From the sequence record PZ256263.1: a stretch of DNA of 64,000 nt. The stretch is one strand, 5' to 3'. Numbering within the stretch: position 1 is the stretch's first letter; each line of letters starts with the position of its first letter. Below are positions 2,627 to 32,228 of this stretch, in pieces. This DNA is from a phage. The position numbers were made by a program, and so were the translations under genes. The notes beneath the pieces are model-generated. The model ran no database searches. It worked only from the letters and a program-made list of their open reading frames with translations, and was not told where the DNA came from.

Positions 2627-3820
2627 ATGTTTCCAGTAACATTAGAAGATACTGAAGGTAATGTTTTAACGGTCAACCCTCCTTGTTATGGGTTCCTTCA
2701 GCTTCGCAACTATAACGGTGGCGTTGATGAAGATGATGACGAAGATGAATACTTCGACCCTAACATGTATGAGGCAACTCATGGGTGGAATATGCACGTT
2801 CGAGTGTGGCATGAAGAAGCTAACGTTCGTAGTGCTGATGGGGAAGAGTTCCTGTTGAGCCGAGAGATGGATATGTGTAAAATCAAGCATATCTGGAACT
2901 CCGGAACTCACATGAAGATGTTAGGTTTTAGACGTTGGCGTGATGAAAAACCTGTATCCGCAGCTTTAGGTTGGGGTGCTATTGATTACGAAGGCGAGCT
3001 TAAAAACAACATTGAACGTTGGAATGACAAAAACCCTGAACATCGAACCACACCTCGTGCTGTACTGGAAGCTATGGAAGCATTTGTGGACAAAGATCGT
3101 CCCTCCTGTTTACGCTGGCACGATAAAGGTTTTATGGGGGTAGCAACTGAAAATGTTCCTGCTGATCGTTGTCTATTCTATTTGATGTTAGATCGAACCT
3201 TCTATTGTGAAGATGAAGAGAGTCAAGTTGAAACCTTCCTCCACAAATGGTTGGTTGAAGGCTGGACAATCCTTCAGTCTTATGTTTACTCACGAATGGT
3301 TAGCACTTACACTAACCTCTTGGGTGAAACGAAAGCAACTCTGGTTGGTAATGATTGGGATGCTTGTATCTTCCCAGCGTCACTATTTACAGTCGGCATG
3401 GCTGATAAATACGCTGAAGCATTTCAAGTGCCTTGGCGTCAACAGTCGTATAGAGACGGGTGTGGTCACTTCCGTGATGAAGACTTTAAGTGGATTCATT
3501 ATGAGAACGATGAAACAGCAGAATTGCGAGTTAACAACTCAATGTTCTTGCCAGTGATGCACCCCGATCTAGTAAAAGATGGGTCAGAGATACTTAAAGG
3601 TGATAATCTTTTGGTTAACTTTACCCGTCGCGTGTCTAAAAATGAGAGAACAGCTAACAGGCTAATCTACGGCATTCGTGCCGAGGCTAAAGACCTGTTC
3701 AACATCTACAACATTATTCAGCGATTTAGTAGTGGAACTCTGGACCAAAGTTCGGAGTATTCAGTGATTCCATCCTCTGAGTGGGATGGTATTATGAGCG
3801 GATTATTTTTAGGAAAATAA
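2627..3820 (+). CDS. hypothetical protein, first gene of amidoligase/GATase cluster
   Basis: Track ORF 397 aa; tightly packed with downstream genes; no recognisable motif. Confidence 0.6.
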   Translation: MFPVTLEDTEGNVLTVNPPCYGFLQLRNYNGGVDEDDDEDEYFDPNMYEATHGWNMHVRVWHEEANVRSADGEEFLLSREMDMCKIKHIWNSGTHMKMLGFRRWRDEKPVSAALGWGAIDYEGELKNNIERWNDKNPEHRTTPRAVLEAMEAFVDKDRPSCLRWHDKGFMGVATENVPADRCLFYLMLDRTFYCEDEESQVETFLHKWLVEGWTILQSYVYSRMVSTYTNLLGETKATLVGNDWDACIFPASLFTVGMADKYAEAFQVPWRQQSYRDGCGHFRDEDFKWIHYENDETAELRVNNSMFLPVMHPDLVKDGSEILKGDNLLVNFTRRVSKNERTANRLIYGIRAEAKDLFNIYNIIQRFSSGTLDQSSEYSVIPSSEWDGIMSGLFLGK

Positions 3821-3830
3821 AAGGTTAGTT

Positions 3831-4802
3831 ATGTCAATCTCCACAACGATCGTACCTCAGAATCTTCAACAAGATTTAGGGGAACAGAAGTTCTTAGGTC
3901 GTGGGTGCTTCGGTATTCACAACTACATGCAAGGCCAGTGTGTAAATGACATTAATGGTGAAGTTATCACGGAAGAAGGGCGCTATCGTCGCTTCAACCG
4001 CGATATCAACTTGCAACTGGAGATGTTGAATTACTGGACTCACTCTTTTCATGGTCATGTTGCATCCGATATTGAAAAGAACTTGATTGAAACAGCGGAC
4101 ATTATGAACTCTATGTCTTGCTATCGTGATGTATTTACAATCACTTCAGCGAACAGTGTTGCTGTCAATCTTCGTGAGCATCCAGCAGATCAGATCTTCA
4201 CAGGACTTATGCTCTTCCGTAGCATTCTGGAAGGGCAGTATCGTGGAATGGATTTCCTAGCAGAAGGAATTGAAGACAGGGAAGAGTGGCTGAAGCGTAA
4301 ACGCATCGGAATCGCTCTAGTGTTAGCTGGGTTAGGTCGTGACTTCTTCGGTGGGTGGTCTCAACGAGGAATAGCCAATGGGAATAGCGAGAGCACCTCT
4401 ATTGTTATTAATAACAATATGTCAGCAGCAGCATTCCTTCCTTTGGTTGTAGACTCTGATGAATACACGAAACAAGTATGGGTTCAAAATCCCTTCGGTG
4501 TTGGTGACAATGAGAATGGTTATGTTCGTAACCATAACCCAGAGGCCTTACGAAGATTTGCTCGTGCTAAAGATCAAGACCCAACTGAGTATGCAACAAT
4601 GTCAGAGTGGTTAAGACTCTGGTCCATCTGTTATGGTCACAAACGTGAAGCAATAGACGACAAGTTGGGAAACATTACAGTACAAAACTTTACAGCCCGA
4701 CTGATTCAAAGAACTGGAGCAGATTCCGGTCTTACTCTTGAAGAAGTTGGTAACACAATCTCATCTCTCTTTTCTGAACTAGTGGAGTATTACAATGACT
4801 AA
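3831..4802 (+). CDS. hypothetical protein (cluster member)
   Basis: Track ORF 323 aa; overlaps next gene start by 8 nt. Confidence 0.6.
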   Translation: MSISTTIVPQNLQQDLGEQKFLGRGCFGIHNYMQGQCVNDINGEVITEEGRYRRFNRDINLQLEMLNYWTHSFHGHVASDIEKNLIETADIMNSMSCYRDVFTITSANSVAVNLREHPADQIFTGLMLFRSILEGQYRGMDFLAEGIEDREEWLKRKRIGIALVLAGLGRDFFGGWSQRGIANGNSESTSIVINNNMSAAAFLPLVVDSDEYTKQVWVQNPFGVGDNENGYVRNHNPEALRRFARAKDQDPTEYATMSEWLRLWSICYGHKREAIDDKLGNITVQNFTARLIQRTGADSGLTLEEVGNTISSLFSELVEYYND

Positions 4803-5601
4803 GCGCAAATTCCTCATCGGCTCTGACCCTGAAATGTTCGTTCGTACTAACAACGGTATCATCACCTCTGTGGCTGGTCTGTTAGGCTGTTCTAAGGACG
4901 ATAAGATCACTCTGGCTAAGGATGTTCGTCTTCAAGAGGACAACGTACTGGCTGAGTTTGATATTGACCCACAGAGCGGCTTTGAAGCGTTTAACGATAA
5001 CATGCAACGTGGTATCGATCTCACCAACAATGTCCTGAACAAACTGGACATGGAAACAGCTCCGGGTGTTAGCTCTCACATCTTCACTGAAGAAGAGATG
5101 AAGACTTTCAATGAATCAGCGTTCATCTTCGGATGTACTCCTGATTTCAACGCTTTCACTGGTCAGAAGAATCCATCCCCGACTTCTCAGAACAAGGGGC
5201 TTCGTACTGCCGGTGGTCACGTACATCTTGGCGTAGTTGGTGCTTTGGATATCACCCTGCAAACTCAGATGATGCTGGGTGTGCTGTGTGACTATTTCCT
5301 GTCCCTCCCAGCAGTTATTATGGATAAAGATACTCGCCGTAAAGAACTCTACGGTAAAGCGTCTGCAATCCGTTATAAAGACTATGGTATTGAATATCGT
5401 TCACTGTCTAACTTCTGGATTAGTGATCGTGAAAACCGTAAGTTTGTTTATGATCAGGTTGACAAAGTTGTTCAGCAGTGTGATATGTCCACTCTGATGG
5501 CATTGCACTCTCGCCTTCCGATTGAGAAGCTTCATGAAATCATTAACGGCAACAACGTTAAAGAAGCGGACCAGCAGATCAAACTCCTTCAGGTAGCATA
5601 A
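4795..5601 (+). CDS. amidoligase-like (carboxylate-amine ligase) enzyme, paralog 1
   Basis: Track ORF 268 aa; motif series GSDPE ... LAEFDIDP ... GGHVHLG ... YGIEYRS parallels the series in ORF 6225-7328. Confidence 0.55.
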   Translation: MTKRKFLIGSDPEMFVRTNNGIITSVAGLLGCSKDDKITLAKDVRLQEDNVLAEFDIDPQSGFEAFNDNMQRGIDLTNNVLNKLDMETAPGVSSHIFTEEEMKTFNESAFIFGCTPDFNAFTGQKNPSPTSQNKGLRTAGGHVHLGVVGALDITLQTQMMLGVLCDYFLSLPAVIMDKDTRRKELYGKASAIRYKDYGIEYRSLSNFWISDRENRKFVYDQVDKVVQQCDMSTLMALHSRLPIEKLHEIINGNNVKEADQQIKLLQVA

Positions 5602-5610
5602 GAGGTTATC

Positions 5611-6228
5611 GTGAGCTTAGTAGCTGATTTTTCTCATTACTATAATGGTACATGGATTGCTAAACGAGCAGGTAATATCAACCTTCCGTGTTTTGTGATT
5701 GGTGTTGAGCAGAGCGGTAACTTCCGCAGTGATGACTTCTCTCACGAAGCAGAACAGGCTCTGTACTTTGTTGTAGAGCAGTGGTACAAGAACGAGCAAG
5801 GGAATCTTCGAAACACTACGATGAACATTCCAGTGTTCGACCCAACCTTGATTCTTGAATCACCTGATGTTGGTTATCTGTTCCATAACGGTAACACTGT
5901 AAGCTGGACTCATATTAACCCTGTTCGTCAGAGAGCAAAGGGTTTAATGGGTAATAAGATTCGAAATGCTCCGGGTGTTGGTCGTGCTATCTCCGGGGAG
6001 ATGGTTTACAGTCTGTTCAATCCTGAATTCGAAGGATTGGTTACTCGTTATATTTACATCAACCCTACTGATGGTAAGGTGCATTATAAAGGTGCACTGG
6101 TAGGACAAGTAGATCTGGAAGCGCCTCGTGACTCTTACGGTCAGCAACCGATGCGACTTCTGGAACACTTTCATCACATTTCTGAAAACCTTAGCAATTA
6201 TAATATTACGTTGGTGGATTCGTTATGA
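5611..6228 (+). CDS. hypothetical protein (cluster member)
   Basis: Track ORF 205 aa starting at GTG with AAGAGG upstream; overlaps next gene by 4 nt. Confidence 0.55.
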   Translation: MSLVADFSHYYNGTWIAKRAGNINLPCFVIGVEQSGNFRSDDFSHEAEQALYFVVEQWYKNEQGNLRNTTMNIPVFDPTLILESPDVGYLFHNGNTVSWTHINPVRQRAKGLMGNKIRNAPGVGRAISGEMVYSLFNPEFEGLVTRYIYINPTDGKVHYKGALVGQVDLEAPRDSYGQQPMRLLEHFHHISENLSNYNITLVDSL

Positions 6229-7328
6229 CAACTGTAGCGCAAACTTTTGGATATCGAGAAGGTCGTTTAACTGAGGAGCATAGTTCAATTGCACTTCAGT
6301 GCGGTGTCGGTATTGAACTTGAACTCGAAGGTTCCGATCATATCGAAGCAGATATGTGGGATTGTACAGAGGATGGTTCCCTGCGTAATGGTTGTGAAAT
6401 GGTATGTTCACGACCTTACAACGGACAGGAGTTGTTAGACGCTATCAACAACCTGAGTGAAGCAGTAGCTGAATCGCACGCCGAGGGGACTTGGCGTTGC
6501 TCTACTCACGTTCATATGGATATGAGGGATGCTGATAGTAATATCCTCAAGAAAACCATTCTCGCTTGGACCTTCTATGAAAAGATGTTGTTCAAGTGTT
6601 CAGGCTATCATCGTTACCGTAGCAACTTCTGCCCTGCTTTCGCAGTGGTACAGGCACAGGTAATGAATGCCTCTGACGCATTTAACTACGACGACGAAGA
6701 GTTCTTCAACCGTCTGGTTCGTTCATGGGATAAGTACACATCCCTAAATCTTCTGCCACTTGCCCAATACGGTTCGATTGAGTTCCGTATCAGTGAGCCT
6801 AAGTGGAAACGTGGTCAACTTCTCAATCTGGTTAACCGCTTCTTGATGTTGAAGAAGCTGGCTTTAGATAACGCAGAGATGAGCAATGATCAGTTTATCG
6901 AGCATTTAAATACTGTACGATTTGCCCCAATGCTTCCTTATCTTCCTCTGGATTACAATCTGGATGAATCGGATTTGCATTCAGGGTATTGTATGGCCCG
7001 TGATGTTTTGTATTGTCGTTCTCATGGAGTAGAGCAATCTGGTCGTATTCGTTTACGTCGAACCAACTCTAACGGAGAAGTTCTTGTTGATTTACGTCTT
7101 ATCTCAGACTTCTACGGATTCCTTGGATATGTTCGAGGGAACGCTAACAACTTGTACCAAGAGATTCTGGTTATGCTTCGTACAACTGATCTATCTACTG
7201 TACGATCTGCACCGGAGCAACGTATCCGTGCTATTTTTGACTTGCTACGTGAGTCAGGCCACAGTGATAACAACATCACAGGGTACATTCCAGATCATCT
7301 GGAAAATCAGTTAGAGCAAGCGCTGTAA
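6225..7328 (+). CDS. amidoligase-like (carboxylate-amine ligase) enzyme, paralog 2
   Basis: Track ORF 367 aa; GIELELEG ... EDGSLRNGCEMVCSRP ... STHVHMD ... YGSIEFRISE, consistent with phage amidoligase family signature as I recall it. Confidence 0.6.
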   Translation: MTTVAQTFGYREGRLTEEHSSIALQCGVGIELELEGSDHIEADMWDCTEDGSLRNGCEMVCSRPYNGQELLDAINNLSEAVAESHAEGTWRCSTHVHMDMRDADSNILKKTILAWTFYEKMLFKCSGYHRYRSNFCPAFAVVQAQVMNASDAFNYDDEEFFNRLVRSWDKYTSLNLLPLAQYGSIEFRISEPKWKRGQLLNLVNRFLMLKKLALDNAEMSNDQFIEHLNTVRFAPMLPYLPLDYNLDESDLHSGYCMARDVLYCRSHGVEQSGRIRLRRTNSNGEVLVDLRLISDFYGFLGYVRGNANNLYQEILVMLRTTDLSTVRSAPEQRIRAIFDLLRESGHSDNNITGYIPDHLENQLEQAL

Positions 7329-7407
7329 TCAATGGGTGCCTCTGGTAAAGGGGCACAATTTAAAGGTTAATTAGATGAAAGGGTTTACCCTTCAGGTGGA
7401 TTAGAAA

Positions 7408-9438
7408 ATTTGTGGCATCGTATTAGCTGGCGGTAATCTGTCAAGCACTGATTTAGACGTATTCAACCAACTCTTTTATGCTGGAGTATTCCGAGGACAG
7501 CACTCCTCTGGTATCTTTGGTCAGCGTAAGAGCACTAAGGAAGTCTTCACTTATAAAGAGGCACTTCCTTCTTTCGCATTCATCCTTCAAGATGAGTACA
7601 AGAAACACACCACTGGTGAAACAGCTTACACTGTAGCACCTTCATGGATTGTTGGTCACAGCCGTCATGCAACGAAAGGTGCAGTTAACGCCAAGAACGC
7701 CCATCCTTTCCAACATGGTAACATCACTCTGGTTCATAACGGAACCTTGATGGACCAAGATCTGTTACCTGACAGCAAAAACTTCGAGGTAGACAGTGAG
7801 AACATCTGCCACTCTATTAACACTATTGGTGCAGCAGAGACTATTCAAAAGCTGGATGGTGCTTTCACCTTAATCTGGCATGATGCTTCTGATAACCGTC
7901 TTCATATCATCCGTAACGAAGAGCGTCCATTCCACCTCGCACGTTGTAACAGGGATTGGTTTGGTGCTTCTGAAGAAGACATGTTGATGTGGATTCTAAA
8001 GCGTTCTAAGTCTCACAAAAACCGAATTGATGAGCACTTTGAATGTAAAGTTGGTACAGAATATATCTTTGATATGTCAAACAACAGCATGACTCTAGTT
8101 GAAGAGGTCGCCCACGAGCTTCCGGTTTTTACGGTAATCAATCGTTGGGGCAATTACTACTCGAACAACTACAGCCAAAGCAGCTATCAAAGTTCCTCAA
8201 AAAGCAGTACAAGCAATCCTTACGACACGAAGCCGGGAGTGACAGCGGCAGACGTTCGTCGAAGAAACGCAGTGGTAAGTCAAAACAAAATCGCAAGCGA
8301 TCGAAACATTGACATTCGCCGCGACATGACTGTGGAAATCACACCACATGAGTTTGTTCCTTATGCAACTGCTGGTGCTGTTCCTTCTCGTGGTAAGATG
8401 ATCGGTTATATCTACGATGAGAAGTCTCAAGAGTATATCGAAGGTGATGTTCATAACGTAGACATTAAGGCTTATCAGGATGCCCTGAAAGACCCTAAAA
8501 TCGTTTACCGTGGGACAGTATCCTGCATCTCCGAAGTTAATGCTATGGTTCGTTTAGTGATCACAGCAGGTCGTTTTGTTGACCCATCTCTGGAGAAAAA
8601 GGAGCCTGAGTCTACTACTGCTGACTTCGATGATGATATCCCTTTTGACATGAATGATAGTTTCGTCAATAAGAATGGCGTTACTATCACTCGTAAATTC
8701 TGGGAAGCACACTCTCACGGGGATTGTGGTGGTTGTGACAAACATATTGATTGGAAGGATGCACCTAAAGCAGTCTTCGCATATCAATGCTACTGGCACC
8801 CTGAATGTCTGGAAGGTTTGACTAAACCTAAAGATGAAGAAGAGGAGGAAACTCCTATTGGTGTTTGTGAAATCTGCGGTGAAGTTAAAACAGAGAATGA
8901 GTTCGATGAAGAGCTTAGTCGTCTTCGTGGTGAAGATATCTGTAAAGTCTGCGCTGTAGATGTAAAGAAGAAAGTGTCTAATGCTACGATCAAAGATGGT
9001 TATGTCTGGATTAAAGCAACAGATACAACAAACGCCCGTCGTCCTGAATTTGCTTTACGTGTAACTGAAGATATGATTGGTCGTATGACTGTATTACCTT
9101 CCTCAGCGAAACAGACAGGCATCACTCTGGAGGATGTTGTTGATGCTTATGTTGAGAAACGTAGCAACAGTATTTTTGCAATCTCAACTAAGCCAAAAAA
9201 GGAGGAACCTGCTGAGAAAGCAGGTGTGTTTCCTGAATCACGAACAGCTCTCCGCAAAACTGTTGTCAGCTTCGACGGAAACCGAAGCACTGACTTCACC
9301 AAAGCCATGTGGTCAACCCTCGGATACTGCTCAGAGTGTTTTAAGCAGATTCCGTGGCGCGATGCTGAAAGTTGTACGCTTGGTTCTATGAATCAAGTTT
9401 ATTGTAATTCTCCTAAATGTTCATTGAATAGAGGTTAA
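7408..9438 (+). CDS. class II (Ntn-type) glutamine amidotransferase domain protein with Cys-rich C-terminal region; predicted ATT start
   Basis: Frame is open from the TAG at 7402-7404; translation begins (I)CGIVLAGG...FRGQHSSGIF and continues ...GHSRHATKG...NAHPF...LVHNG, the class II GATase pattern; no in-frame ATG/GTG/TTG before 7747; AGGTGGA at 7394-7400 sits 7 nt before ATT. Confidence 0.65.
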   Translation: MCGIVLAGGNLSSTDLDVFNQLFYAGVFRGQHSSGIFGQRKSTKEVFTYKEALPSFAFILQDEYKKHTTGETAYTVAPSWIVGHSRHATKGAVNAKNAHPFQHGNITLVHNGTLMDQDLLPDSKNFEVDSENICHSINTIGAAETIQKLDGAFTLIWHDASDNRLHIIRNEERPFHLARCNRDWFGASEEDMLMWILKRSKSHKNRIDEHFECKVGTEYIFDMSNNSMTLVEEVAHELPVFTVINRWGNYYSNNYSQSSYQSSSKSSTSNPYDTKPGVTAADVRRRNAVVSQNKIASDRNIDIRRDMTVEITPHEFVPYATAGAVPSRGKMIGYIYDEKSQEYIEGDVHNVDIKAYQDALKDPKIVYRGTVSCISEVNAMVRLVITAGRFVDPSLEKKEPESTTADFDDDIPFDMNDSFVNKNGVTITRKFWEAHSHGDCGGCDKHIDWKDAPKAVFAYQCYWHPECLEGLTKPKDEEEEETPIGVCEICGEVKTENEFDEELSRLRGEDICKVCAVDVKKKVSNATIKDGYVWIKATDTTNARRPEFALRVTEDMIGRMTVLPSSAKQTGITLEDVVDAYVEKRSNSIFAISTKPKKEEPAEKAGVFPESRTALRKTVVSFDGNRSTDFTKAMWSTLGYCSECFKQIPWRDAESCTLGSMNQVYCNSPKCSLNRG

Positions 9439-9440
9439 GT

Positions 9441-9674
9441 ATGGAAATTCGTAAGATGATGCTGGATAACGTTGTAACCACTCGACGTATCCCGATGACG
9501 AGCACAGGATGTGATAACCTTCGTGCAATCCAGAAGTGGATGCAAGCTGGTATTGGTCAAGTACTTGAGACACAGGTTGAGGTTCCTTTCCCAACGGTGA
9601 TCAATAACGTACTTGCTGATTATGTAAAAATCAAAGGCATTAAGGTAGAACCTCATGTCAAATCTGGTTCCTAA
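9441..9674 (+). CDS. hypothetical protein
   Basis: Track ORF 77 aa immediately after GATase stop. Confidence 0.5.
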   Translation: MEIRKMMLDNVVTTRRIPMTSTGCDNLRAIQKWMQAGIGQVLETQVEVPFPTVINNVLADYVKIKGIKVEPHVKSGS

Positions 9675-25472: not shown

Positions 25473-25841
25473 GTGATGAGAGAAACCAATATCATCTACA
25501 GAACATTGAGATGTTTAGCTAAAGAGAGGGGGATGGAGGATTTCCTCCTCCAATATTATGAAATAGCTAAGACTGGAATTTATCCAAAATGGTTTAGTGA
25601 AGATCAAGGATTATGCTTCAACTTCCGCTGTTATAAGAGATATTATTATTTCACAAAGCATTTAGATATTGACGACATGAAGAATATGTTTAATCAAGAA
25701 GAGTTCTTTGACCCAACATATCCCTTCGGATGTGATCAATATTTTAGAGATAGAGACAACGGGGCACATCATAAGAATCCAAAACGACGGGCTTGGATTA
25801 AAAATACACTGAAAACTCTATATAGTATTGAGGTTGAGTGA
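25473..25841 (+). CDS. hypothetical protein
   Basis: Track ORF 122 aa. Confidence 0.5.
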   Translation: MMRETNIIYRTLRCLAKERGMEDFLLQYYEIAKTGIYPKWFSEDQGLCFNFRCYKRYYYFTKHLDIDDMKNMFNQEEFFDPTYPFGCDQYFRDRDNGAHHKNPKRRAWIKNTLKTLYSIEVE

Positions 25842-26032
25842 TGAGTATTAAGGGTTATTATGAATCTTGGGCCGTCTTCAGTGGTGGCTCCACTCTCGTA
25901 GCATTAAATGGTCAACTGTGTATCTTTGAGACAGAGAACTTAGCAATAACCAAAGCAGCAGAGCTAGTTCGAAAGTTTCCAAACAAGACATTCACAGTTA
26001 AAAGGATAGAAGTACCTGCATTGGTAGAGTGA
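25838..26032 (+). CDS. hypothetical protein
   Basis: Track ORF 64 aa. Confidence 0.45.
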   Translation: MMSIKGYYESWAVFSGGSTLVALNGQLCIFETENLAITKAAELVRKFPNKTFTVKRIEVPALVE

Positions 26033-26087
26033 ATAAATAAGACGAATGAACTATTCTTATTGATTGGTTCGTAACAAGGAGATTGAA

Positions 26088-26216
26088 GTGGAAGAGATGC
26101 CATCGGATTGGTGTTATCGTCAGAGCGCCATCTGTAATGAACAAGGTCGTCCTGATGAGGCTGAGTTCTATCTAGAGCTAGCCGAACTGTGGAAAGAGCG
26201 AGAGGAGAAAGAGTGA
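26088..26216 (+). CDS. small hypothetical protein (42 aa)
   Basis: GTG 7 nt after AAGGA; (V)EEMPSDWCYRQSAICNEQGRPDEAEFYLELAELWKEREEKE; stop overlaps next ATG. Confidence 0.3.
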   Translation: MEEMPSDWCYRQSAICNEQGRPDEAEFYLELAELWKEREEKE

Positions 26217-26383
26217 TGGAAGGTATTTACCGTAAACCACCTCCGAAATACAACATCCTTTATACTGATACAACAGGTGAGTTTAGAAGTGTGTTAGTTT
26301 ACACGGATGAAGAACGAAACCGAATGGTTGCTGCTATTGAAGCCAATGGTGGTACAATCATGCGAATTTATAACATAACATAA
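26216..26383 (+). CDS. small hypothetical protein (55 aa)
   Basis: Internal ATG of track ORF 26189 coupled to upstream stop (TGATG). Confidence 0.35.
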   Translation: MEGIYRKPPPKYNILYTDTTGEFRSVLVYTDEERNRMVAAIEANGGTIMRIYNIT

Positions 26384-26392
26384 GGAATATCA

Positions 26393-26569
26393 ATGACTGC
26401 TTCTGAATTAAAAGAAACCCTGTCCACTGAAGAAGGTAAAGCTTTCTTCTTATCTCAAGTACACTCTATGGGTAAAGATGCCCTTCGCCAAGCAGTCGTT
26501 GAGCTTACTGGTGTAGTGATTGACTTGAGTATCGAAAATGAAGCACTTGAAGCTAAAGTGACCGACTAA
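26393..26569 (+). CDS. small hypothetical protein (58 aa)
   Basis: ATG with AAGGAA upstream; MTASELKETLSTEEGKAFFLSQVH...; followed by terminator. Confidence 0.4.
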   Translation: MTASELKETLSTEEGKAFFLSQVHSMGKDALRQAVVELTGVVIDLSIENEALEAKVTD

Positions 26570-26575
26570 ATAAAG

Positions 26576-26599
26576 AGCTGCCTTAGGGCGGCTTTTCTT
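26576..26599 (+). terminator. rho-independent terminator
   Basis: 7-bp stem agctgcc/ggcggct (one G-U) with ttag loop followed by tttcttg. Confidence 0.5.
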
Positions 26600-26615
26600 G
26601 TCTAAAGGATTTGAC

Positions 26616-27008
26616 ATGAATATTGGTTTAGATTATGATGACACTTACACAGCAGATAGACGTCTGTGGAGAGATGTGATAGGCTTGATGAAAGAGTATG
26701 GACATGATGTAAGATTCGTGACTTTCCGTTTCTCAGAGCCTAATGGTTATGATAACGTGGGTATCTTATATGATGCAGAGACTCTGCAAATACCTGTCAT
26801 CTTTTGCAATGGCGTTCAGAAAGATGACGTGTGTCGTCAGTTAGGTTTCTTTGTAGATATCTGGATTGACGACTTCCCTGTTGGAATCCCTAAGAAAGAC
26901 CACCTAGATGGGATGCTGAAGGGCGTAAGACTTAATGACCTTAGAGCAGCACCCCCTGTAGAAATAGCCGCTCCTGTGTACTCTGAAGAGCCTCTGGTGA
27001 TTCGATGA
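26616..27008 (+). CDS. HAD-superfamily phosphatase-like protein (putative nucleotidase)
   Basis: Internal ATG of track ORF 26598 with AAAGGA upstream; N-terminal IGLDYDDT (DxDxT) and C-terminal VDIWIDD. Confidence 0.5.
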   Translation: MNIGLDYDDTYTADRRLWRDVIGLMKEYGHDVRFVTFRFSEPNGYDNVGILYDAETLQIPVIFCNGVQKDDVCRQLGFFVDIWIDDFPVGIPKKDHLDGMLKGVRLNDLRAAPPVEIAAPVYSEEPLVIR

Positions 27009-27181
27009 AGAAGATAATCCTTTGGGCTTTAGGTATAGCTCTATTCCTGTATCTGATTGATATCGGAGGAGATGCCAGTAGAGAAGACTGTGAAGTTAGG
27101 TTGTCTCAGGAATTTAAGTCAGAGACAAAGTGGGTTAACGGTCGATGCTATGTAAAAGATTGGGGAAGAACTTCTCGATGA
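27005..27181 (+). CDS. small secreted/membrane protein (58 aa)
   Basis: ATGA overlap with upstream stop; MKKIILWALGIALFLYLIDIGG... hydrophobic N-terminus; stop overlaps next ATG. Confidence 0.35.
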   Translation: MKKIILWALGIALFLYLIDIGGDASREDCEVRLSQEFKSETKWVNGRCYVKDWGRTSR

Positions 27182-27345
27182 AAAAGTATAGCGTATGGAT
27201 TAACGAGGAAGAAGAAGGTTTTGATGAGGCTGGAGGGTGGGTAAATATTCTAAACACTGACGACATAGAAGAGGCCGAGAAGTGCGCCCTAAACTACAAC
27301 TCTGGGTATTATGAAAGAAATTGGGAATATGAGGAAGAAGAATGA
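27178..27345 (+). CDS. small acidic protein
   Basis: Internal ATG of track ORF 27145; MKKYSVWINEEEEGFDEAGG...EYEEEE. Confidence 0.4.
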   Translation: MKKYSVWINEEEEGFDEAGGWVNILNTDDIEEAEKCALNYNSGYYERNWEYEEEE

Positions 27346-27563
27346 TTTGGGTTCACACTTATAGAATTGGAAAGAAAGGGCTTACTACTATTCACACATC
27401 TGAAGATAGTGCTAAAGCATCTCAGGCTGTACTGAAAGGAAAGATCACACCTTATGTAGTCGCTGAAGAAAAGAAGAATCCTCCAGTTCTAGAATATCTA
27501 GGAACAGGTAAAGCTTATACAGCACTGGATGTTATTAACAATAAACAAGGAGATGTGGTATAA
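27342..27563 (+). CDS. hypothetical protein
   Basis: Track ORF 73 aa. Confidence 0.45.
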   Translation: MIWVHTYRIGKKGLTTIHTSEDSAKASQAVLKGKITPYVVAEEKKNPPVLEYLGTGKAYTALDVINNKQGDVV

Positions 27564-27564
27564 A

Positions 27565-27780
27565 ATGGAATACATTGATAAATATTCAAGTGAAGATTCA
27601 AAAGACGCTGATGTTTTATTCATATTGAAAACAGACTGTCTAGAACACGGACAGCTTATTAACTTTATGGAATTGGCAAAGCTTAAAGAAGAGATTGATC
27701 AACTGTACAGTGATGAGCAATCCAGATTACTTTCTCTGTCTCTACTAGGTGATCTAACTTGTGATGGATGTACAATTTAA
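27565..27780 (+). CDS. hypothetical protein
   Basis: Internal ATG of track ORF 27529 placed after the upstream stop; C-terminal CDGC. Confidence 0.4.
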   Translation: MEYIDKYSSEDSKDADVLFILKTDCLEHGQLINFMELAKLKEEIDQLYSDEQSRLLSLSLLGDLTCDGCTI

Positions 27781-27789
27781 GAGGTCTTT

Positions 27790-28293
27790 ATGGCTGAAGT
27801 TTATTTTGCAGGAGATGGTCACTTAGGCCATCGCAACATCTGTAGTTTTCGTAAGCAATTTAAAAACATCGAAGAACATGACAAAGCAATTCTGGCTGCT
27901 TTTGACCACGTAACCAAACGTGATAAAATCTTCTTTACTGGTGATTGGGTATTTGAAAAGTATGCCCTTGATATTATCTCTGAAGTGAAAGGAGAGAAGC
28001 ATCTGGTCTTAGGGAACCATGATAGGTTAGAACTTCTCCCTGATATGATGAAAGTCTTTCGTAGAATCTCTGGTGATTATAAGTATAAGGAGTTTTGGAT
28101 AACTCATATTCCTATTCACACTGATGAGATGAGAGGGAAGTTTAATATTTATGCTCATACACATAACCATGTAATTGATGATTGGAGGTATTTCTGTACA
28201 TCAATGGAGCAAATTAACTATAAAGCTGTTTCTCTGCAAGAGATTAGGAAGATTTTTGATGAAAGAAGAAAAGAACAAGATCTCATTATTTAA
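27790..28293 (+). CDS. metallophosphoesterase (calcineurin-like)
   Basis: Track ORF 167 aa; GDGHLGH ... FFTGDWV ... VLGNHD motif series. Confidence 0.65.
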   Translation: MAEVYFAGDGHLGHRNICSFRKQFKNIEEHDKAILAAFDHVTKRDKIFFTGDWVFEKYALDIISEVKGEKHLVLGNHDRLELLPDMMKVFRRISGDYKYKEFWITHIPIHTDEMRGKFNIYAHTHNHVIDDWRYFCTSMEQINYKAVSLQEIRKIFDERRKEQDLII

Positions 28294-28423
28294 AGAACCT
28301 GTAGTTTATAAAGACTCTATCAGAGATCAATATAATGAGATGTTAAAGAAACAAGCTGATTCTAATCTTCGTTATCAGAGGATAGTAGAACAATCTAACT
28401 TTAAAGGTTTACTTGAATGGTAA
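28175..28423 (+). CDS. hypothetical small protein (start uncertain, likely internal ATG near 28259)
   Basis: Track ORF 82 aa overlapping the phosphoesterase 3' end in another frame. Confidence 0.3.
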   Translation: MMIGGISVHQWSKLTIKLFLCKRLGRFLMKEEKNKISLFKEPVVYKDSIRDQYNEMLKKQADSNLRYQRIVEQSNFKGLLEW

Positions 28424-28524
28424 CTTATATCCTTTACTTCTTAGCTTTCTTAGGAATAGTCTTTTTATCTATTATTCTTGAATTTGGTTTAAGTAAGTTA
28501 GTTAATTATTTAGGTAGTAAGTAA
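28417..28524 (+). CDS. possible 35-aa hydrophobic peptide
   Basis: ATG overlapping upstream stop; MVTYILYFLAFLGIVFLSIILEFGLSK...; AT-rich context makes chance hydrophobic ORFs likely. Confidence 0.2.
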   Translation: MVTYILYFLAFLGIVFLSIILEFGLSKLVNYLGSK

Positions 28525-28607: not shown

Positions 28608-28701
28608 CTCGCAGGTGGCTCCTGCCCTTCGGTACTTGCAAGGGATTCTATGAATTGCCCAATGTACAAGCCTGCAAGAGTTATTCTCTAACTCTACCTT
28701 A

Positions 28702-28710
28702 TATACATTA
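28702..28710 (-). promoter_or_regulatory. TAATGTATA motif on the minus strand, antisense orientation in a + strand noncoding region
   Basis: Plus strand reads tatacatta; no minus-strand ATG in the next 180 nt downstream. Confidence 0.35.
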
Positions 28711-28762: not shown

Positions 28763-28771
28763 TAATGTATA
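28763..28771 (+). promoter_or_regulatory. TAATGTATA motif, candidate phage-sigma-dependent promoter for the SSB-like gene
   Basis: Exact motif about 46 nt upstream of AAGGA and the ATG at 28831. Confidence 0.5.
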
Positions 28772-28830
28772 TTATACATAACCGCTCAAAGAGAGCAACA
28801 ATCTATCAAATTAAATAAGGAAATTAAAAT

Positions 28831-29598: not shown

Positions 29599-29621
29599 AG
29601 CCACCTCCGGGTGGCTTTTTT
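29599..29621 (+). terminator. rho-independent terminator
   Basis: 7-bp stem agccacc/ggtggct with tccg loop followed by tttttt, 20 nt after SSB-like stop. Confidence 0.7.
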
Positions 29622-29634
29622 CGTTGGAGACAAC

Positions 29635-29985
29635 ATGCAAAACACATTAAGTGATAACTTAGGGTTTATCGTTTTCTCGGCTCTTGTATTCTTTGGTGGT
29701 ATGAAGTTTAACGAGTACCAAACAGACAGCAGTAATCTGGACAAAGAGAAGCACCAGCAAGAGTTAGAGATTGAAAGAAGTAGAGCAGCTGATGAAGTTG
29801 CTCAGAGGGTTCTTACCGGTTTATCTAACTGGAAGAAGAACACGGAAACCGTTTATAAAGAGATGCATTATGAGAAAACTAAACCAGTTTTTTATAATGT
29901 CTGCGCTAGTGATGAGTATGTCAGCTTGTTCAATGAGCGACAACAGCAGGCAATCAATGCCCTTACCAACAAACCTAAAAGCTGA
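29635..29985 (+). CDS. i-spanin-like (Rz-like) protein
   Basis: Internal ATG of track ORF 29611 with GGAGA upstream; N-terminal TM LGFIVFSALVFFGG then charged helical region. Confidence 0.5.
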   Translation: MQNTLSDNLGFIVFSALVFFGGMKFNEYQTDSSNLDKEKHQQELEIERSRAADEVAQRVLTGLSNWKKNTETVYKEMHYEKTKPVFYNVCASDEYVSLFNERQQQAINALTNKPKS

Positions 29986-30129
29986 ATGTAGGGTTGACCT
30001 GCCTCTTTTAGAAAGTGCTCAAGGAAAAGCACTAGCCACTACGTTGGAGTGGTATCAGGACCAGTACACAGAATGTGCTGCCAATCACAATGGATTGCTA
30101 GAAGCTCTGAAAGAGCGTGGAATAGAATA

Positions 30130-30130
<1 letters not shown>
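29870..30130 (+). CDS. o-spanin-like (Rz1-like) lipoprotein, +1 frame overlapping i-spanin 3' end
   Basis: Internal ATG of track ORF 29771; MRKLNQFFIMSALVMSMSAC signal with lipobox-like MSAC; Pro-containing mature part. Confidence 0.45.
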
Positions 30131-31616
<1,486 letters not shown>

Positions 31617-31626
<10 letters not shown>

Positions 31627-32228
31627 ATGGTGAGTCTAAACCTTTAGTAGTAATTCTTAATGGACCTCCGGGTTGTGGGAAAGATACAATAGCTAGTGCT
31701 TGGGTTAATGCACATTCATACCATCACAATCATTTAACCAAATCCTTCAAGGAGCCGATGTATAGAGTGGCTGCTGCTGCACTAGGAATGCCTCTAGAAA
31801 ACTTCCTAGCACGCTATGAAGATCGTGAATGGAAAGAAAAATCTAGACCAGAGTGGGGAGGGAAGTCTGTAAGAGATTTGATGATTTCTACAAGTGAAGA
31901 CTTCTTAAAACCTATGTTTGGCAACAATCATATGGGGAACCTCGCTGTAAAGAGCATCAAACAAGAGGAGTTAGGTCAGGATGACATTATTGTTTTTACT
32001 GACGGAGGTTTTGATGCAGAGGTACGAGAACTAGAAAAGAATTTCCATGTCCAAGTTGTCCAAGTGCTTAGAGATGGTTGCTCTTTTAATGGAGACTCTC
32101 GTTCATACATTGAAGGGGAGCAGAGAAAAACATATCTGCTGTTTAACGACTCAACTATTGAATCAGCAGTGTTAGATCTAGATTGGATTATCGCTCAAGC
32201 TCAGGATGATATTTATGGAAGAAGTTAA
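31617..32228 (+). CDS. P-loop kinase, deoxynucleoside monophosphate kinase-like
   Basis: Track ORF 203 aa; Walker A LNGPPGCGKDT; GKSVRDLMISTSEDF resembles T4 dNMP kinase segment. Confidence 0.5.

What the first reader, a model, noticed from the sequence alone, without database searches (positions are those of the whole stretch)
26616..28293. Two small phosphoesterases (HAD-like and metallophosphoesterase) in a block of tiny genes
A 130-aa HAD-like protein (DxDxT and DxxxDD motifs) and a 167-aa calcineurin-like metallophosphoesterase (GDxH, GD, GNHD) flank six or more tiny ORFs. They could be nucleotidases feeding dNTP synthesis alongside ThyX and dCTP deaminase, or hydrolases of signalling nucleotides.
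Basis: partly seen in the sequence, partly recalled or inferred. Interest (0 to 1): 0.35.

Follow-up and report, generated by a model that had tools for sequence, protein, structure and literature searches.

The report
Two small phosphatase-type genes in a coliphage
A phiEco32/SU10-like E. coli phage carries two real but functionally untested phosphate-cleaving enzymes: a common phage metallophosphoesterase, and an unusually small HAD-type phosphatase from a large, mostly viral family that standard databases leave unnamed.

Summary
The window is a Kuravirus (phiEco32/SU10-like coliphage). ORF 26616-27008 encodes a 130-aa protein with all four HAD catalytic motifs. ORF 27790-28293 encodes a 167-aa metallophosphoesterase (MPE) with all five metal-site motifs. 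Both are under strong purifying selection. Only four tiny ORFs lie between them, not six or more.

The MPE is ordinary. It passes the Pfam Metallophos cut-off, matches phrog_547, and its model matches the uncharacterised Aquifex protein AQ_1665 (1xm7). Homologues occur in about 1,300 phage records. The common label "Ser/Thr protein phosphatase" is not supported.

The HAD-like protein has no Pfam, NCBIfam or PDB sequence hit. It belongs to a large family (about 1,900 clusters at 50% identity) of roughly 95-residue, cap-less, acidic mini-HADs. The family is mostly viral and is annotated "hypothetical". Its nearest solved relative is the uncharacterised 2obb (hhalign 93%). It is not a member of the T5 Dmp or T4 Pnkp phosphatase families.

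The two enzymes are not an obligate pair: the MPE lies within 6 kb of the mini-HAD in 7 of 80 viral loci. Both sit in the middle (replication and nucleotide-metabolism) gene block. Substrates are unknown. My best guess is nucleotide or nucleic-acid phosphate turnover, possibly a Dmp-like dNMPase role. Interest is modest.

The parts
26573..26596 (+). G+C-rich hairpin followed by a U-run, between the preceding tiny gene and the HAD-like gene. It may be an intrinsic terminator, attenuator or stability element.
   Evidence: The RNA fold gives a 10-bp stem, -16.7 kcal/mol, z = -2.9, and 0 of 200 shuffles fold as well. The simple terminator scan did not list it.
26616..27008 (+). Mini-HAD phosphatase-like protein, 130 aa (phrog_4919; SU10 gp045). 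Motif I is D6-x-D8-x-T10, motif II is T36 (followed by R38), motif III is K69, and motif IV is D85-D86.
27005..27181 (+). Tiny ORF, 58 aa, with a hydrophobic N-terminus (phrog_14089).
   Evidence: dN/dS 0.04-0.06.
27178..27345 (+). Tiny ORF, 55 aa, acidic (phrog_10314). The start is taken at the internal ATG that matches SU10 gp043.
27342..27563 (+). Tiny ORF, 73 aa (phrog_36005). It varies among Kuraviruses.
27565..27780 (+). Tiny ORF, 71 aa (phrog_11811).
27790..28293 (+). AQ_1665-type metallophosphoesterase, 167 aa (PF00149; phrog_547; SU10 gp040).
28259..28423 (+). 54-aa ORF (phrog_14248) that overlaps the MPE stop in the +1 frame. In other lineages it is fused to the MPE as a C-terminal tail.
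   Evidence: The fused 203-206-aa homologues P0042 and P0044 end in ...FKGLLEW. The sequence shows its own AGGAAG Shine-Dalgarno element and ATG. It matches a PHROG. dN/dS is 0-0.2.
28417..28524 (+). 35-aa hydrophobic ORF (phrog_24970). It is the last gene before the intergenic promoter region.
28763..28773 (+). Match to the phage sigma-factor promoter motif tAATGTATAtA. It marks the start of the next middle transcription unit. A second match on the same strand lies upstream at 17265-17275.
   Evidence: Motif search: 5 matches against 1.26 expected. The motif and the middle-gene assignment (SU10 CDS 25-68) come from PMC4281155.

Best explanation
The region is part of the middle-gene block (replication and nucleotide metabolism) of a Kuravirus. 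It encodes two unrelated phosphohydrolases whose catalytic residues are all conserved. They are independent accessory genes, not a two-component system.

(1) The 130-aa protein is a minimal, cap-less HAD-type enzyme. Its inferred mechanism is that of a Mg2+-dependent phosphomonoesterase. Asp6 would form the aspartyl-phosphate intermediate and Asp8 would act as the general acid/base. Thr36, Arg38 and Lys69 would hold the phosphate, and Asp85/Asp86 would hold the metal. Because it has no cap and no flap, I expect the active site to be completed by dimerisation. Because the family is strongly acidic, I expect a small phosphomonoester substrate rather than a polynucleotide. The most likely substrate is a (deoxy)nucleoside monophosphate. 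That would make it a functional analogue, not a homologue, of T5 Dmp.

(2) The 167-aa protein is an AQ_1665-type binuclear metallophosphoesterase. It most likely acts as a phosphodiesterase or nuclease on nucleic-acid ends or nucleotide diesters. It is not a protein phosphatase.

Shown here: gene reality, superfamily membership, conservation of the catalytic residues, distribution, and the lack of obligate linkage. Inferred: metal use, oligomeric state, and all substrates. My confidence in the enzyme classes is about 0.9, in their independence about 0.7, and in each named substrate class about 0.35.
For: Phage identity and gene block. The window is 94.9% identical to Escherichia phage EK5 and about 94.7% to SU10. 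SU10 CDS 25-68 are the middle genes (PMC4281155). Promoter-motif matches bracket the block. The genome context includes dCTP deaminase, ThyX, PhoH, DNA polymerase, dNMP kinase and a 5'-3' exonuclease.

HAD-like protein. The four motifs are invariant or nearly so. In the AF2 model (pLDDT 84.8) each motif sits at the C-terminal end of a strand, or at a helix N-terminus, as in HAD enzymes. hhalign to 2obb gives 93% probability and E = 3.4e-7 over 97 columns. HAD structures appear among the Foldseek hits with probability 0.93-1.0, although the E-values are weak. BFVD matches include proteins named 'HAD-like domain'. Asp at position +2 from the nucleophile marks phosphatases and mutases (established HAD knowledge). 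The median pI of the family is 4.9. Natural tandem duplicates exist, for example P0086, and 6 of the top 150 representatives have two matched stretches. Neighbours in other phages are PhoH, FEN, DNA polymerase and dNMP kinase. T5 Dmp is itself a HAD with a D-x-D-G-T / T-A-R / K / I-D-D pattern and is a proven dNMPase. This phage encodes the dNMP kinase that such an enzyme would counterbalance.

MPE. It passes the Pfam threshold. All metal ligands are conserved. The AF2 model has pLDDT 96.6. The best structural match is 1xm7 (E = 1e-10, TM 0.75), followed by the Mre11/SbcD nucleases and LpxH. There is a weak NCBIfam hit to the nuclease PdeM. The family pI is neutral to basic.

Independence. The MPE is within 6 kb of the mini-HAD in 7 of 80 viral loci. 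T5-like phages carry this MPE but not the mini-HAD.
Against: No enzymatic data exist for either family, or for their nearest solved relatives. 2obb and 1xm7 are both structural-genomics entries of unknown function, and no literature was found on them.

No Pfam, NCBIfam or PDB sequence model recognises the mini-HAD. Foldseek against the PDB gave no hit at E <= 0.001. The model lacks the flap hairpin and the fifth strand of canonical HADs, so it might not be catalytically self-sufficient.

Nucleotide-specific HADs such as NT5C and Dmp use a cap, and this protein has none. hhalign to the Dmp family gives only 2% probability.

The MPE is adjacent to the mini-HAD in four non-Kuravirus viral loci, in varying order: L012, L025 and the near-identical L041/L042. 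That is more than random placement would give, so some functional coupling cannot be excluded.
Confidence: 0.45

Rival explanations
1. Counter-defence hydrolases. The MPE would degrade a cyclic or linear nucleotide immune signal, such as cNMPs, cyclic oligonucleotides or ADP-ribose derivatives. The mini-HAD would remove a phosphate from a signal or its precursor. Both would sit in a block of small accessory genes upstream of a DarG-like macrodomain.
For: The block is made of small, variable accessory ORFs. A DarG-like macrodomain lies 1.8 kb downstream (NCBIfam 1e-41, PADLOC DarG 8e-45). The mini-HAD family is overwhelmingly viral: at least 525 IMG/VR loci against 36 loci in 185,579 species genomes, and two of the five examined lie next to phage or mobile-element genes. 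The MPE superfamily includes class III cyclic-nucleotide phosphodiesterases (established knowledge). T5 Dmp shows that a phage HAD can act as an anti-defence factor by depleting dAMP.
Against: Neither protein matches a PADLOC model meaningfully. The MPE's structural neighbours are nucleases and LpxH, not cNMP phosphodiesterases. Both genes are conserved core middle genes across Kuraviruses under strong purifying selection, rather than patchy, fast-evolving genes. A monoesterase cannot open a cyclic diester signal.
Confidence: 0.2
2. Nucleic-acid end healing. The cap-less HAD would be a polynucleotide 3'-phosphatase like the T4 Pnkp phosphatase domain. The MPE would be a 2',3'-cyclic phosphodiesterase like the MPE module of bacterial Pnkp. 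Together with the phage's CCA-adding-like nucleotidyltransferase they would repair tRNAs cut by host nucleases.
For: Cap-less HADs typically act on macromolecules (established HAD knowledge). The motif II segment G-H-x-V-x-x-V-T-x-R aligns locally with the T4 Pnkp segment G-Y-Q-I-V-V-V-S-G-R. One GenBank record labels an rV5-like homologue 'Polynucleotide kinase' (H90). Rare fusions join the mini-HAD to an RNA polymerase alpha-CTD-like helix-hairpin-helix domain (P0201) and to a P-loop module (P0123). The phage encodes a nucleotidyltransferase that RefSeq notes as CCA-adding-like.
Against: hhalign to a 40-sequence Pnkp phosphatase profile gives only 31% probability locally and 4% globally. The family is strongly acidic, with pI 4.6 here and a median of 4.9, which does not suit polynucleotide binding. 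No RNA ligase or polynucleotide kinase was found in the window, and there are no tRNA genes. The nucleotidyltransferase has no Pfam or PDB sequence support. It lies about 10 kb from the mini-HAD, in the early block.
Confidence: 0.1
3. The database label is correct: the MPE is a Ser/Thr (or Tyr) protein phosphatase like lambda PP/NinI. The cap-less HAD would also be a phosphoprotein phosphatase. Both would reset host phosphorylation.
For: Many GenBank records call the homologue 'putative serine/threonine protein phosphatase' or 'NinI-like'. Some cap-less HADs, such as the CTD phosphatases and MDP-1, act on proteins (established knowledge).
Against: The PPP signature is GDxHG / GDxVDRG / GNHE, and it is absent. 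The protein reads GDGHLGH, GDWVF and GNHD. A PDB sequence search at E <= 1 found no lambda PP or other PPP enzyme, only 1xm7. Foldseek returned no PPP phosphatase in its top 50 hits. The label appears to be inherited from the Pfam name 'Calcineurin-like phosphoesterase'.
Confidence: 0.07
4. The mini-HAD is not an enzyme. It would be a small acidic binding protein, for example a decoy or DNA mimic that happens to retain a HAD-like scaffold.
For: The domain is very small (core about 95 aa) and lacks the flap, the cap and the fifth strand. It is strongly acidic. No catalytic-family profile recognises it.
Against: The only invariant residues across 88 highly divergent members are the HAD catalytic ones (D6, D8, K69, D85) plus R38. 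That is the signature of a conserved active site, not of a binding surface.
Confidence: 0.05

Closest known systems
PDB 2obb, 'hypothetical protein' of 142 aa. From memory, not verified here: Bacteroides thetaiotaomicron BT0820, classified as HAD-like in SCOP.
   Same: It is the only solved structure with a meaningful sequence-profile match. The HMM search gives E = 0.025 over nearly the full length, and hhalign gives 93% probability and E = 3.4e-7. It shares the D-x-D-G-T, S-x-R and h-h-I-D-D motifs and is also a small single-domain protein.
   Different: 2obb has about 14 extra residues after motif I, in the flap region. It is cellular, and its function is also unknown, so it gives no substrate information. 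No literature on it was found.
Phage T5 Dmp, deoxynucleoside-5'-monophosphatase (Pfam PF26880)
   Same: It is a phage-encoded HAD with the same motif grammar: D22-x-D24-G-T, T-A-R, K, I-D-D. It is encoded by a phage that also carries a dNMP kinase and this same MPE subfamily. It has proven dNMPase activity and an anti-Kongming role (10.1101/2024.12.20.629578).
   Different: Dmp is 244 aa, with an insertion of about 55 residues between motifs I and II that is absent here. hhalign between the two family profiles gives 2% probability. Pfam gave no PF26880 hit for the window protein. It is a functional analogy only.
T4 polynucleotide kinase-phosphatase, C-terminal HAD domain (1ltq; Pfam HAD_PNKP)
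   Same: It is a phage HAD without a large cap. The motif II S-G-R aligns with the T-x-R here.
   Different: There is no significant profile similarity (31% local, 4% global). The T4 domain is fused to a kinase and acts on polynucleotides. The window protein stands alone and is very acidic.
Aquifex aeolicus AQ_1665 (PDB 1xm7) and the phage 'phosphoesterase' family phrog_547
   Same: It is the best sequence match (E = 0.0018) and the best structural match (E = 1e-10, TM 0.75) to the 167-aa MPE. It has the same D-x-H-x-x-H-x-N start and the same GNHD motif. Homologues occur in 1,329 phage records, including T5-like, Acinetobacter T4-like, Staphylococcus and Listeria myophages.
   Different: Nothing differs at the family level, and I treat the window protein as a member. 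The family itself has no known substrate. The window version lacks the roughly 40-aa C-terminal tail that is fused to the MPE in some Kuravirus relatives; here that tail is a separate overlapping ORF.
PUA-Calcineurin-CE-HAD anti-phage system of E. coli ECOR28 (bioRxiv 10.64898/2026.01.15.699771)
   Same: It is a characterised case in which a HAD and a calcineurin-like MPE cooperate on nucleotides: dATP to dADP by the HAD, then dADP to dAMP by the MPE.
   Different: It is a host defence system, not a phage system. Its HAD is a C1-capped enzyme with motif II at T122 and motif III at K180. Its MPE is the Calcineurin-CE clade fused to a PUA domain. Neither window protein meaningfully matches any PADLOC defence model. 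Here the two genes are not consistently linked.
Cluster A mycobacteriophage MPE (A10ZJ24 gp48 / Bxb1 gp47; PMC12287305)
   Same: It is an experimentally studied phage MPE that is expressed early, has phosphodiesterase activity, and is reported to damage host DNA.
   Different: It belongs to a different MPE subfamily. hhalign of the window family against Bxb1 gp47 gives 2.7% probability, and only the GHTH motif aligns.

Membership tests
HAD superfamily (phosphatase branch) | Motif I, D-x-D-x-[TV], at the C-terminal end of strand 1, with Asp at nucleophile+2 | tested here: met
   The sequence reads L-D6-Y-D8-D-T10. D6 and D8 are invariant and T10 is at least 90% conserved in 88 sequences. They follow predicted strand 2-5.
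HAD superfamily (phosphatase branch) | Motif II (Ser/Thr at the end of strand 2), motif III (Lys before strand 4) and motif IV (DD or GDxxxD at the end of strand 4) | tested here: met
   T36 is at least 90% conserved and ends strand 31-36. K69 is invariant and starts helix 69-75. D85 is invariant and D86 at least 90% conserved, and both follow strand 82-84.
HAD superfamily (phosphatase branch) | Rossmannoid fold with a squiggle and a beta-hairpin flap after strand 1, and a five-stranded sheet | tested here: inconclusive
   The AF2 model is an alpha/beta fold with four strands and one helical turn at residues 11-13. It has no hairpin and no fifth strand. Foldseek against the PDB lists HAD structures (3e81, 4hgo, 2zos, 2voy_I, 4pnh) with probability 0.47-1.0, but the best E-value is 0.018 and universal-stress-protein folds are mixed in.
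HAD superfamily (phosphatase branch) | Significant match to a curated HAD-clan profile | tested here: not met
   The window protein has no Pfam or NCBIfam hit at E <= 1. Among 88 family members only sub-threshold hits appear: Hydrolase_3 in three at 0.015, NT5C in two at 0.088. The one indirect link is hhalign at 93% to 2obb, whose own Pfam hits are HAD-clan families below threshold.
HAD superfamily (phosphatase branch) | Mg2+-dependent phosphoryl transfer through an aspartyl-phosphate intermediate | not testable with these tools
   This needs enzyme assays and D6N/D8N mutants.
T5 Dmp deoxynucleotidase family (PF26880) | Profile match, and the capped architecture of about 240 aa | tested here: not met
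   The window protein has no PF26880 hit, whereas every T5 Dmp homologue carries one. hhalign of A3 against A4 gives 2% probability. There is no insertion between motifs I and II.
T4 Pnkp-type polynucleotide 3'-phosphatase (HAD_PNKP) | Profile match to the Pnkp phosphatase domain | tested here: not met
   hhalign gives 0.3% probability against the single sequence. Against a 40-sequence profile it gives 31% locally over 23 columns and 4% globally.
Metallophosphoesterase superfamily (PF00149) | Pfam score above the gathering cut-off, and the five motifs DxH / GD / GNH[DE] / H / GHxH | tested here: met
   The score is 25.1 bits against 21.5. D9-x-H11, G51-D52, G75-N76-H77-D78, H106 and H123-x-H125 are invariant or at least 90% conserved. 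In the window protein the glycine of the last motif is alanine.
AQ_1665-like MPE subfamily (1xm7; phrog_547) | The closest sequence and fold match is to this clade rather than to others | tested here: met
   phrog_547 matches at 1.7e-52. 1xm7 is the only PDB sequence hit below E = 0.01. It is also the only Foldseek hit below E = 0.001 (1.1e-10, TM 0.75).
PPP-type Ser/Thr protein phosphatase (lambda PP / NinI) | GDxHG, GDxVDRG and GNHE signatures, and similarity to PPP enzymes | tested here: not met
   The motifs read GDGHLGH, GDWVF (no DRG) and GNHD. No PPP enzyme appears in the PDB sequence search at E <= 1 or in the top 50 Foldseek hits.
Ligase-associated nuclease PdeM (TIGR04123) | NCBIfam score above the curated cut-off | tested here: not met
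   The score is 20.3 bits against a cut-off of 150.
Cluster A mycobacteriophage MPE (Bxb1 gp47 class) | Profile similarity | tested here: not met
   hhalign gives 2.7% probability over 15 columns.
Two-gene HAD + MPE system | Conserved co-occurrence or adjacency of the two genes across lineages | tested here: not met
   The MPE is within +/-6 kb of the mini-HAD in 7 of 80 IMG/VR loci. Three of those are Kuraviruses and two are near-duplicates of each other. Distant Kuravirus-like contigs L006-L008 have the mini-HAD and the dNMP kinase but no nearby MPE.

The most novel reading that the evidence does not exclude
The mini-HAD defines a virus-specific family of the smallest known HAD phosphatases, with a core of about 95 residues that has no cap and no flap and is active as a dimer. 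Its job would be to strip phosphate from dNMPs or another nucleotide precursor. That would let phages encoding a dNMP kinase avoid triggering nucleotide-sensing host immunity of the Kongming type (dITP signalling) or of the kind sensed by PUA-Cal-HAD. It would be an independently evolved counterpart of T5 Dmp. The AQ_1665-type MPE would sometimes be recruited beside it to supply or clear the diester or diphosphate step.
Probability: 0.15. Interest if true: 0.55.

Novelty: new member of a known kind. Interest (0 to 1): 0.27.

Why it matters
The MPE result mainly corrects an annotation. The widespread label 'Ser/Thr protein phosphatase' on about 1,300 phage genes has no support.

The mini-HAD matters somewhat more. 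About 1,900 sequence clusters, almost all viral, share an intact HAD active site on a scaffold of about 95 residues. No Pfam or NCBIfam model covers them, and GenBank records almost always call them 'hypothetical'. If the family is active, it would set a lower size limit for the HAD fold. It would also add a second phage solution, independent of T5 Dmp, for manipulating nucleotide monophosphate pools. Recent work links that process to immune triggering and evasion. A family profile built from alignment A3 would immediately annotate hundreds of phage genes.

Tried and rejected
1. Pfam, NCBIfam and PDB sequence or profile searches with the HAD-like protein and with its 30-sequence profile gave nothing significant. 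Only the 88-sequence profile reached 2obb.

2. A Pfam scan of 88 family members found no family above threshold. The scattered hits were fused domains or noise.

3. Foldseek of the HAD model against the PDB gave no hit at E <= 0.001, so it could not settle the fold by itself.

4. I tested membership of the T4 Pnkp phosphatase family and rejected it.

5. I tested membership of the T5 Dmp family and rejected it. The IMG/VR scan for Dmp returned only relatives at 90% identity or more, so it was useless for a profile.

6. I tested an obligate HAD-MPE pairing and rejected it.

7. I looked for any conserved gene neighbour of the mini-HAD. No family occurred in more than 13 of 80 loci.

8. I tested relatedness of the MPE to the studied mycobacteriophage MPE and rejected it.

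9. The PADLOC scan gave no meaningful hit for either enzyme.

10. The tRNA-repair idea is weak. There are no tRNA genes, and the CCA-like nucleotidyltransferase has no PDB or Pfam support.

11. Literature searches for 2obb/BT0820, 1xm7/aq_1665, and Kuravirus or phiEco32 phosphatases found nothing informative.

12. The genome-contig scan with alignment A3 failed for lack of a conserved stretch, so I repeated it with A1. Both locus scans depend on short peptide patterns, so their counts are lower bounds.

13. The sigma-70 promoter scan found 15 sites against 19.5 expected and was not informative.


Full report
**What the window is.** The 4.3 kb around the finding is 94.9% identical to Escherichia phage EK5. 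It is 92-95% identical to dozens of other Kuravirus genomes (phiEco32/SU10-like C3 podophages), and 99 phage records match. The EK5 and SU10 annotations give the same gene order:
- DNA polymerase
- five small genes
- a 393-nt 'hypothetical protein' (SU10 gp045)
- four small genes
- a 504-nt 'phosphoesterase / putative Ser/Thr protein phosphatase' (SU10 gp040)
- two small genes
- a 248-aa protein
- the Rz/Rz1 spanins
- a macrodomain protein
- the phage sigma factor
- a SLOG-domain protein
- dNMP kinase
- a 5'-3' exonuclease

Upstream on the same strand lie a primase-helicase, a 3'-5' exonuclease, dCTP deaminase, ThyX and PhoH. According to the SU10 paper, CDS 25-68 are the middle genes, transcribed from promoters that carry the motif tAATGTATAtA (PMC4281155). 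That motif occurs on the + strand at 17265 and at 28763 (5 matches in the window against 1.26 expected). The HAD-like gene, the tiny ORFs and the MPE therefore lie inside the middle block, together with the replication and nucleotide-metabolism genes.

**Checking the observation.** The 130-aa ORF starts at the ATG at 26616, which is preceded by AAAGGA six bases upstream. The longer TTG-initiated ORF listed mechanically is not needed. The 167-aa ORF is 27790-28293.

Between the two enzymes there are four ORFs, not six or more. Each matches a PHROG of unknown function at E = 1e-35 to 1e-40. The wider run of small genes (25473-28524) contains eleven.

All of these are real genes. Pairwise dN/dS against EK5, SU10 and three IMG/VR Kuraviruses is 0.04-0.18 for the HAD-like gene and 0.03-0.08 for the MPE. 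It is 0.02-0.07 for three of the four intervening ORFs. The tiny ORFs vary between Kuravirus genomes, while the two enzymes are constant.

**The metallophosphoesterase.** Pfam Metallophos scores 25.1 bits against a cut-off of 21.5, and phrog_547 'phosphoesterase' matches at 1.7e-52. In 33 homologues down to 29% identity the metal-binding residues are invariant or nearly so: D9, H11, D52, N76, H77, H106, H123 and H125.

The AlphaFold model is very confident (pLDDT 96.6). Its only strong structural match is 1xm7, the Aquifex protein AQ_1665 of unknown function (E = 1.1e-10, TM 0.75). The next matches, at E of about 1e-3 to 1e-2, are the Mre11/SbcD nucleases, LpxH and PptH. 1xm7 is also the only PDB sequence hit below E = 0.01.

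tblastn finds this subfamily in 1,329 phage records, including T5-like phages, Acinetobacter T4-like phages and the Staphylococcus and Listeria myophages. It is a very common phage gene.

The frequent label 'Ser/Thr protein phosphatase' is not supported. The PPP signatures (GDxHG, GDxVDRG, GNHE) are replaced by GDGHLGH, GDWVF and GNHD. No PPP enzyme appears in the sequence or fold searches.

It is also unrelated, beyond the superfamily level, to three other candidates:
- the experimentally studied cluster A mycobacteriophage MPE (hhalign 2.7%)
- the ligase-associated nuclease PdeM (20 bits against a cut-off of 150)
- any PADLOC defence model

No literature on AQ_1665 was found.

**The HAD-like protein.** Standard resources fail here. 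There was no Pfam or NCBIfam hit at E <= 1. There was no PDB hit with the single sequence or the 30-sequence profile. The only family matches are two PHROGs of unknown function. Four further lines of evidence support it.

- *Conservation.* A search of 5.8 billion proteins found 39 relatives. A profile search of 1.84 billion cluster representatives found 1,929 at E <= 1e-3 and 1,435 at E <= 1e-10. Most are 90-140 aa, with a conserved core of about 95 residues. In an 88-sequence alignment with 13% mean column identity, the invariant positions are D6, D8, R38, K69 and D85. T10, V35, T36, W83, I84, D86 and P88 are at least 90% conserved. This is the HAD motif set: I (DxDxT), II (T), III (K) and IV (DD).
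- *Predicted topology.* In the AlphaFold model (pLDDT 84.8, above 90 for residues 1-90) D6/D8 follow strand 2-5 and T36 ends strand 31-36. K69 begins helix 69-75, and D85/D86 follow strand 82-84. That is the canonical HAD placement.
- *Nearest solved relative.* The 88-sequence profile reaches 2obb, a 142-aa 'hypothetical protein' (E = 0.025, nearly full length). hhalign gives 93% probability and E = 3.4e-7 over 97 columns, with motifs I, II and IV in register.
- *Fold searches.* Foldseek against the PDB is weak (best E = 0.018). Even so, it lists HAD structures at probability 0.93-1.0: KDN-9-P phosphatase, mannosyl-3-phosphoglycerate phosphatase and the CopA P-domain. Against viral models it finds uncharacterised phage proteins, several already named 'HAD-like domain', and some fused to XkdF-like domains.

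I therefore accept the HAD superfamily assignment. The caveats are that the model has one helical turn (the squiggle) but no flap hairpin, no cap, and only four strands.

**What the mini-HAD is not.** It is not a member of the T4 Pnkp phosphatase family. hhalign against a 40-sequence profile that I built gives 31% probability locally, over the motif II segment only, and 4% globally. It is not a member of the T5 Dmp family either. There is no PF26880 hit, and profile-profile comparison gives 2% probability. NT5C and other HAD-clan Pfam models give only sub-threshold hits in a few members.

**Distribution and context.**
- The family is mostly viral. A peptide-pattern scan found at least 525 confirmed loci in IMG/VR but only 36 in one genome each of 185,579 bacterial and archaeal species.
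- I examined five of those 36. One lies beside terminase and portal genes, and one lies beside a D5-type primase.
- In GenBank phages it occurs in 324 records: Kuravirus, rV5-like Vequintavirinae, the Klebsiella, Proteus and Erwinia phages of about 145 kb, Campylobacter phages and others. It is almost always called 'hypothetical protein'.
- In 80 viral loci with 6 kb of flank on each side, the MPE is present in only seven. Three of those are Kuraviruses and two are near-duplicates of each other. In the non-Kuravirus cases the gene order varies.
- No neighbour family occurs in more than 13 loci. The most frequent real genes are PhoH (13), an actin-like protein (12), a FEN-type exonuclease (11), DNA polymerase (9) and dNMP kinase (6).

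The two enzymes are therefore not an obligate pair. The adjacency rate is still higher than random placement would give, so occasional coupling cannot be ruled out.

**Clues to substrate.**
- Asp at nucleophile+2 marks phosphatases and mutases (established HAD knowledge).
- The absence of a cap usually means either a macromolecular substrate or an active site closed by oligomerisation. Natural tandem duplicates, each half with intact motifs, favour a dimer: P0086, and 6 of the top 150 representatives.
- The family is strongly acidic (pI 4.6 here, median 4.9, 85% below 6). That argues against polynucleotide binding and in favour of a small-molecule substrate. The MPE family is neutral to basic (median pI 7.2).
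- Rare fusions to an RNA polymerase alpha-CTD-like domain and to a P-loop module point loosely towards nucleic-acid or nucleotide biology.
- The one characterised phage HAD with the same motif grammar (DxDGT / TAR / K / IDD) is T5 Dmp. It is a dNMP phosphatase that depletes dAMP and so blocks the Kongming system, which is triggered by phage dNMP kinases. Dmp homologues co-occur with such kinases (10.1101/2024.12.20.629578).
- This phage has such a kinase 4.6 kb downstream. The rV5-like and KNP2-like phages that carry the mini-HAD have one as well.
- T5-like phages carry Dmp plus this same MPE subfamily but not the mini-HAD, so the two toolkits are parallel.
- A host defence system, PUA-Cal-HAD, shows that a HAD and a calcineurin-like MPE can act in sequence on dATP. 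Its HAD is capped and its MPE belongs to another clade (10.64898/2026.01.15.699771).

**Conclusion.** The sequence observation is right, apart from the ORF count. Both proteins retain all catalytic residues. The MPE is a routine member of a very common but uncharacterised phage family, and it is mislabelled in many records. The HAD-like protein belongs to a large, virus-dominated, unannotated family of minimal HADs. That family is the more interesting half, but it remains a new member of a known superfamily.

My best functional guess is nucleotide or nucleic-acid phosphate turnover in the middle phase of infection. The mini-HAD would act as a small-molecule phosphatase, most likely a dNMPase, and the MPE as a diesterase or nuclease. 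I give each substrate call roughly a one-in-three chance. The counter-defence, end-healing and protein-phosphatase readings remain open and are ranked in the report sections. Only enzymology and phage genetics can decide among them.

Noticed in passing
window 28259-28423 versus 27790-28293: A 54-aa ORF overlaps the MPE stop codon by 35 nt in the +1 frame. In other Kuravirus lineages (P0042, P0044, locus L005) it is fused to the MPE as a C-terminal tail ending ...FKGLLEW. In the window it has its own AGGAAG Shine-Dalgarno element and ATG, and it is under purifying selection. A gene fission or fusion is likely, and I did not exclude programmed frameshifting.
   Followed up: partly
window 26573-26596 (+): A strong hairpin (10-bp stem, -16.7 kcal/mol, z = -2.9) followed by a U-run sits immediately upstream of the HAD-like gene, inside the middle operon. 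It may be a terminator, attenuator or RNA-stability element. The simple terminator scan missed it.
   Followed up: partly
window 28700-28710 (-) and 28763-28773 (+): The 300-bp intergenic gap after the MPE block holds two copies of the phage sigma-factor promoter motif TAATGTATATA on opposite strands. The minus-strand copy is an exact match and would point antisense into the MPE block.
   Followed up: no
window 30049-30570 (+) (probable true start near 30130): The macrodomain protein gives a strong match to the antitoxin DarG, a DNA ADP-ribosyl glycohydrolase (NCBIfam 1e-41, PADLOC DarG 8e-45). It is plausibly an anti-DarT counter-defence gene. It sits next to the phage sigma factor and a YAcAr/SLOG-domain protein (31234-31626).
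   Followed up: partly
window 31617-32228 (+): The dNMP kinase is 203 aa here and in IMG/VR locus L003. It lacks the N-terminal extension of about 94 aa present in the EK5 and SU10 orthologues (297 aa). The kinase domain is intact.
   Followed up: partly
window 14711-16081 (+): This 456-aa protein (phrog_12715 'nucleotidyltransferase') is noted in RefSeq as containing a class II CCA-adding enzyme nucleotidyltransferase domain, and it was detected in SU10 proteomics. It has no Pfam hit at E <= 0.001 and no PDB sequence hit. The window contains no tRNA genes.
   Followed up: partly
window 2627-11084 (+): An early-gene cluster holds a COOH-NH2 ligase, an amidoligase, a glutamine amidotransferase and an ATP-grasp ('ribosomal protein S6 glutaminyl transferase') homologue. 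Two large proteins of unknown function lie with them (397 and 323 aa; phrog_13063 and phrog_13102). This is the known phiEco32-type peptide or amide-ligase module, whose product is unknown.
   Followed up: no
window 25838-26032 (+): A 64-aa ORF in the tiny-gene block belongs to the Pfam family T4_Y13H (PF25744, E = 4e-25). It is therefore shared with T4-like phages.
   Followed up: no
window 29611-30130 (+): There is an overlapping spanin pair. The Rz-like i-spanin is at 29611-29985. An o-spanin lipoprotein ORF in another frame starts inside it and runs about 145 nt past its stop, to 30130. SU10 carries an HNH homing endonuclease just upstream of the pair (gp036), and the window lacks it.
   Followed up: no
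proteins P0086, P0201, P0123 (mini-HAD family members from elsewhere): The family includes natural tandem duplicates with both active sites intact. It also includes a fusion to an RNA polymerase alpha-CTD-like domain and a fusion to a short P-loop module. BFVD models additionally show the domain fused to XkdF-like prohead-protease-type proteins.
   Followed up: partly
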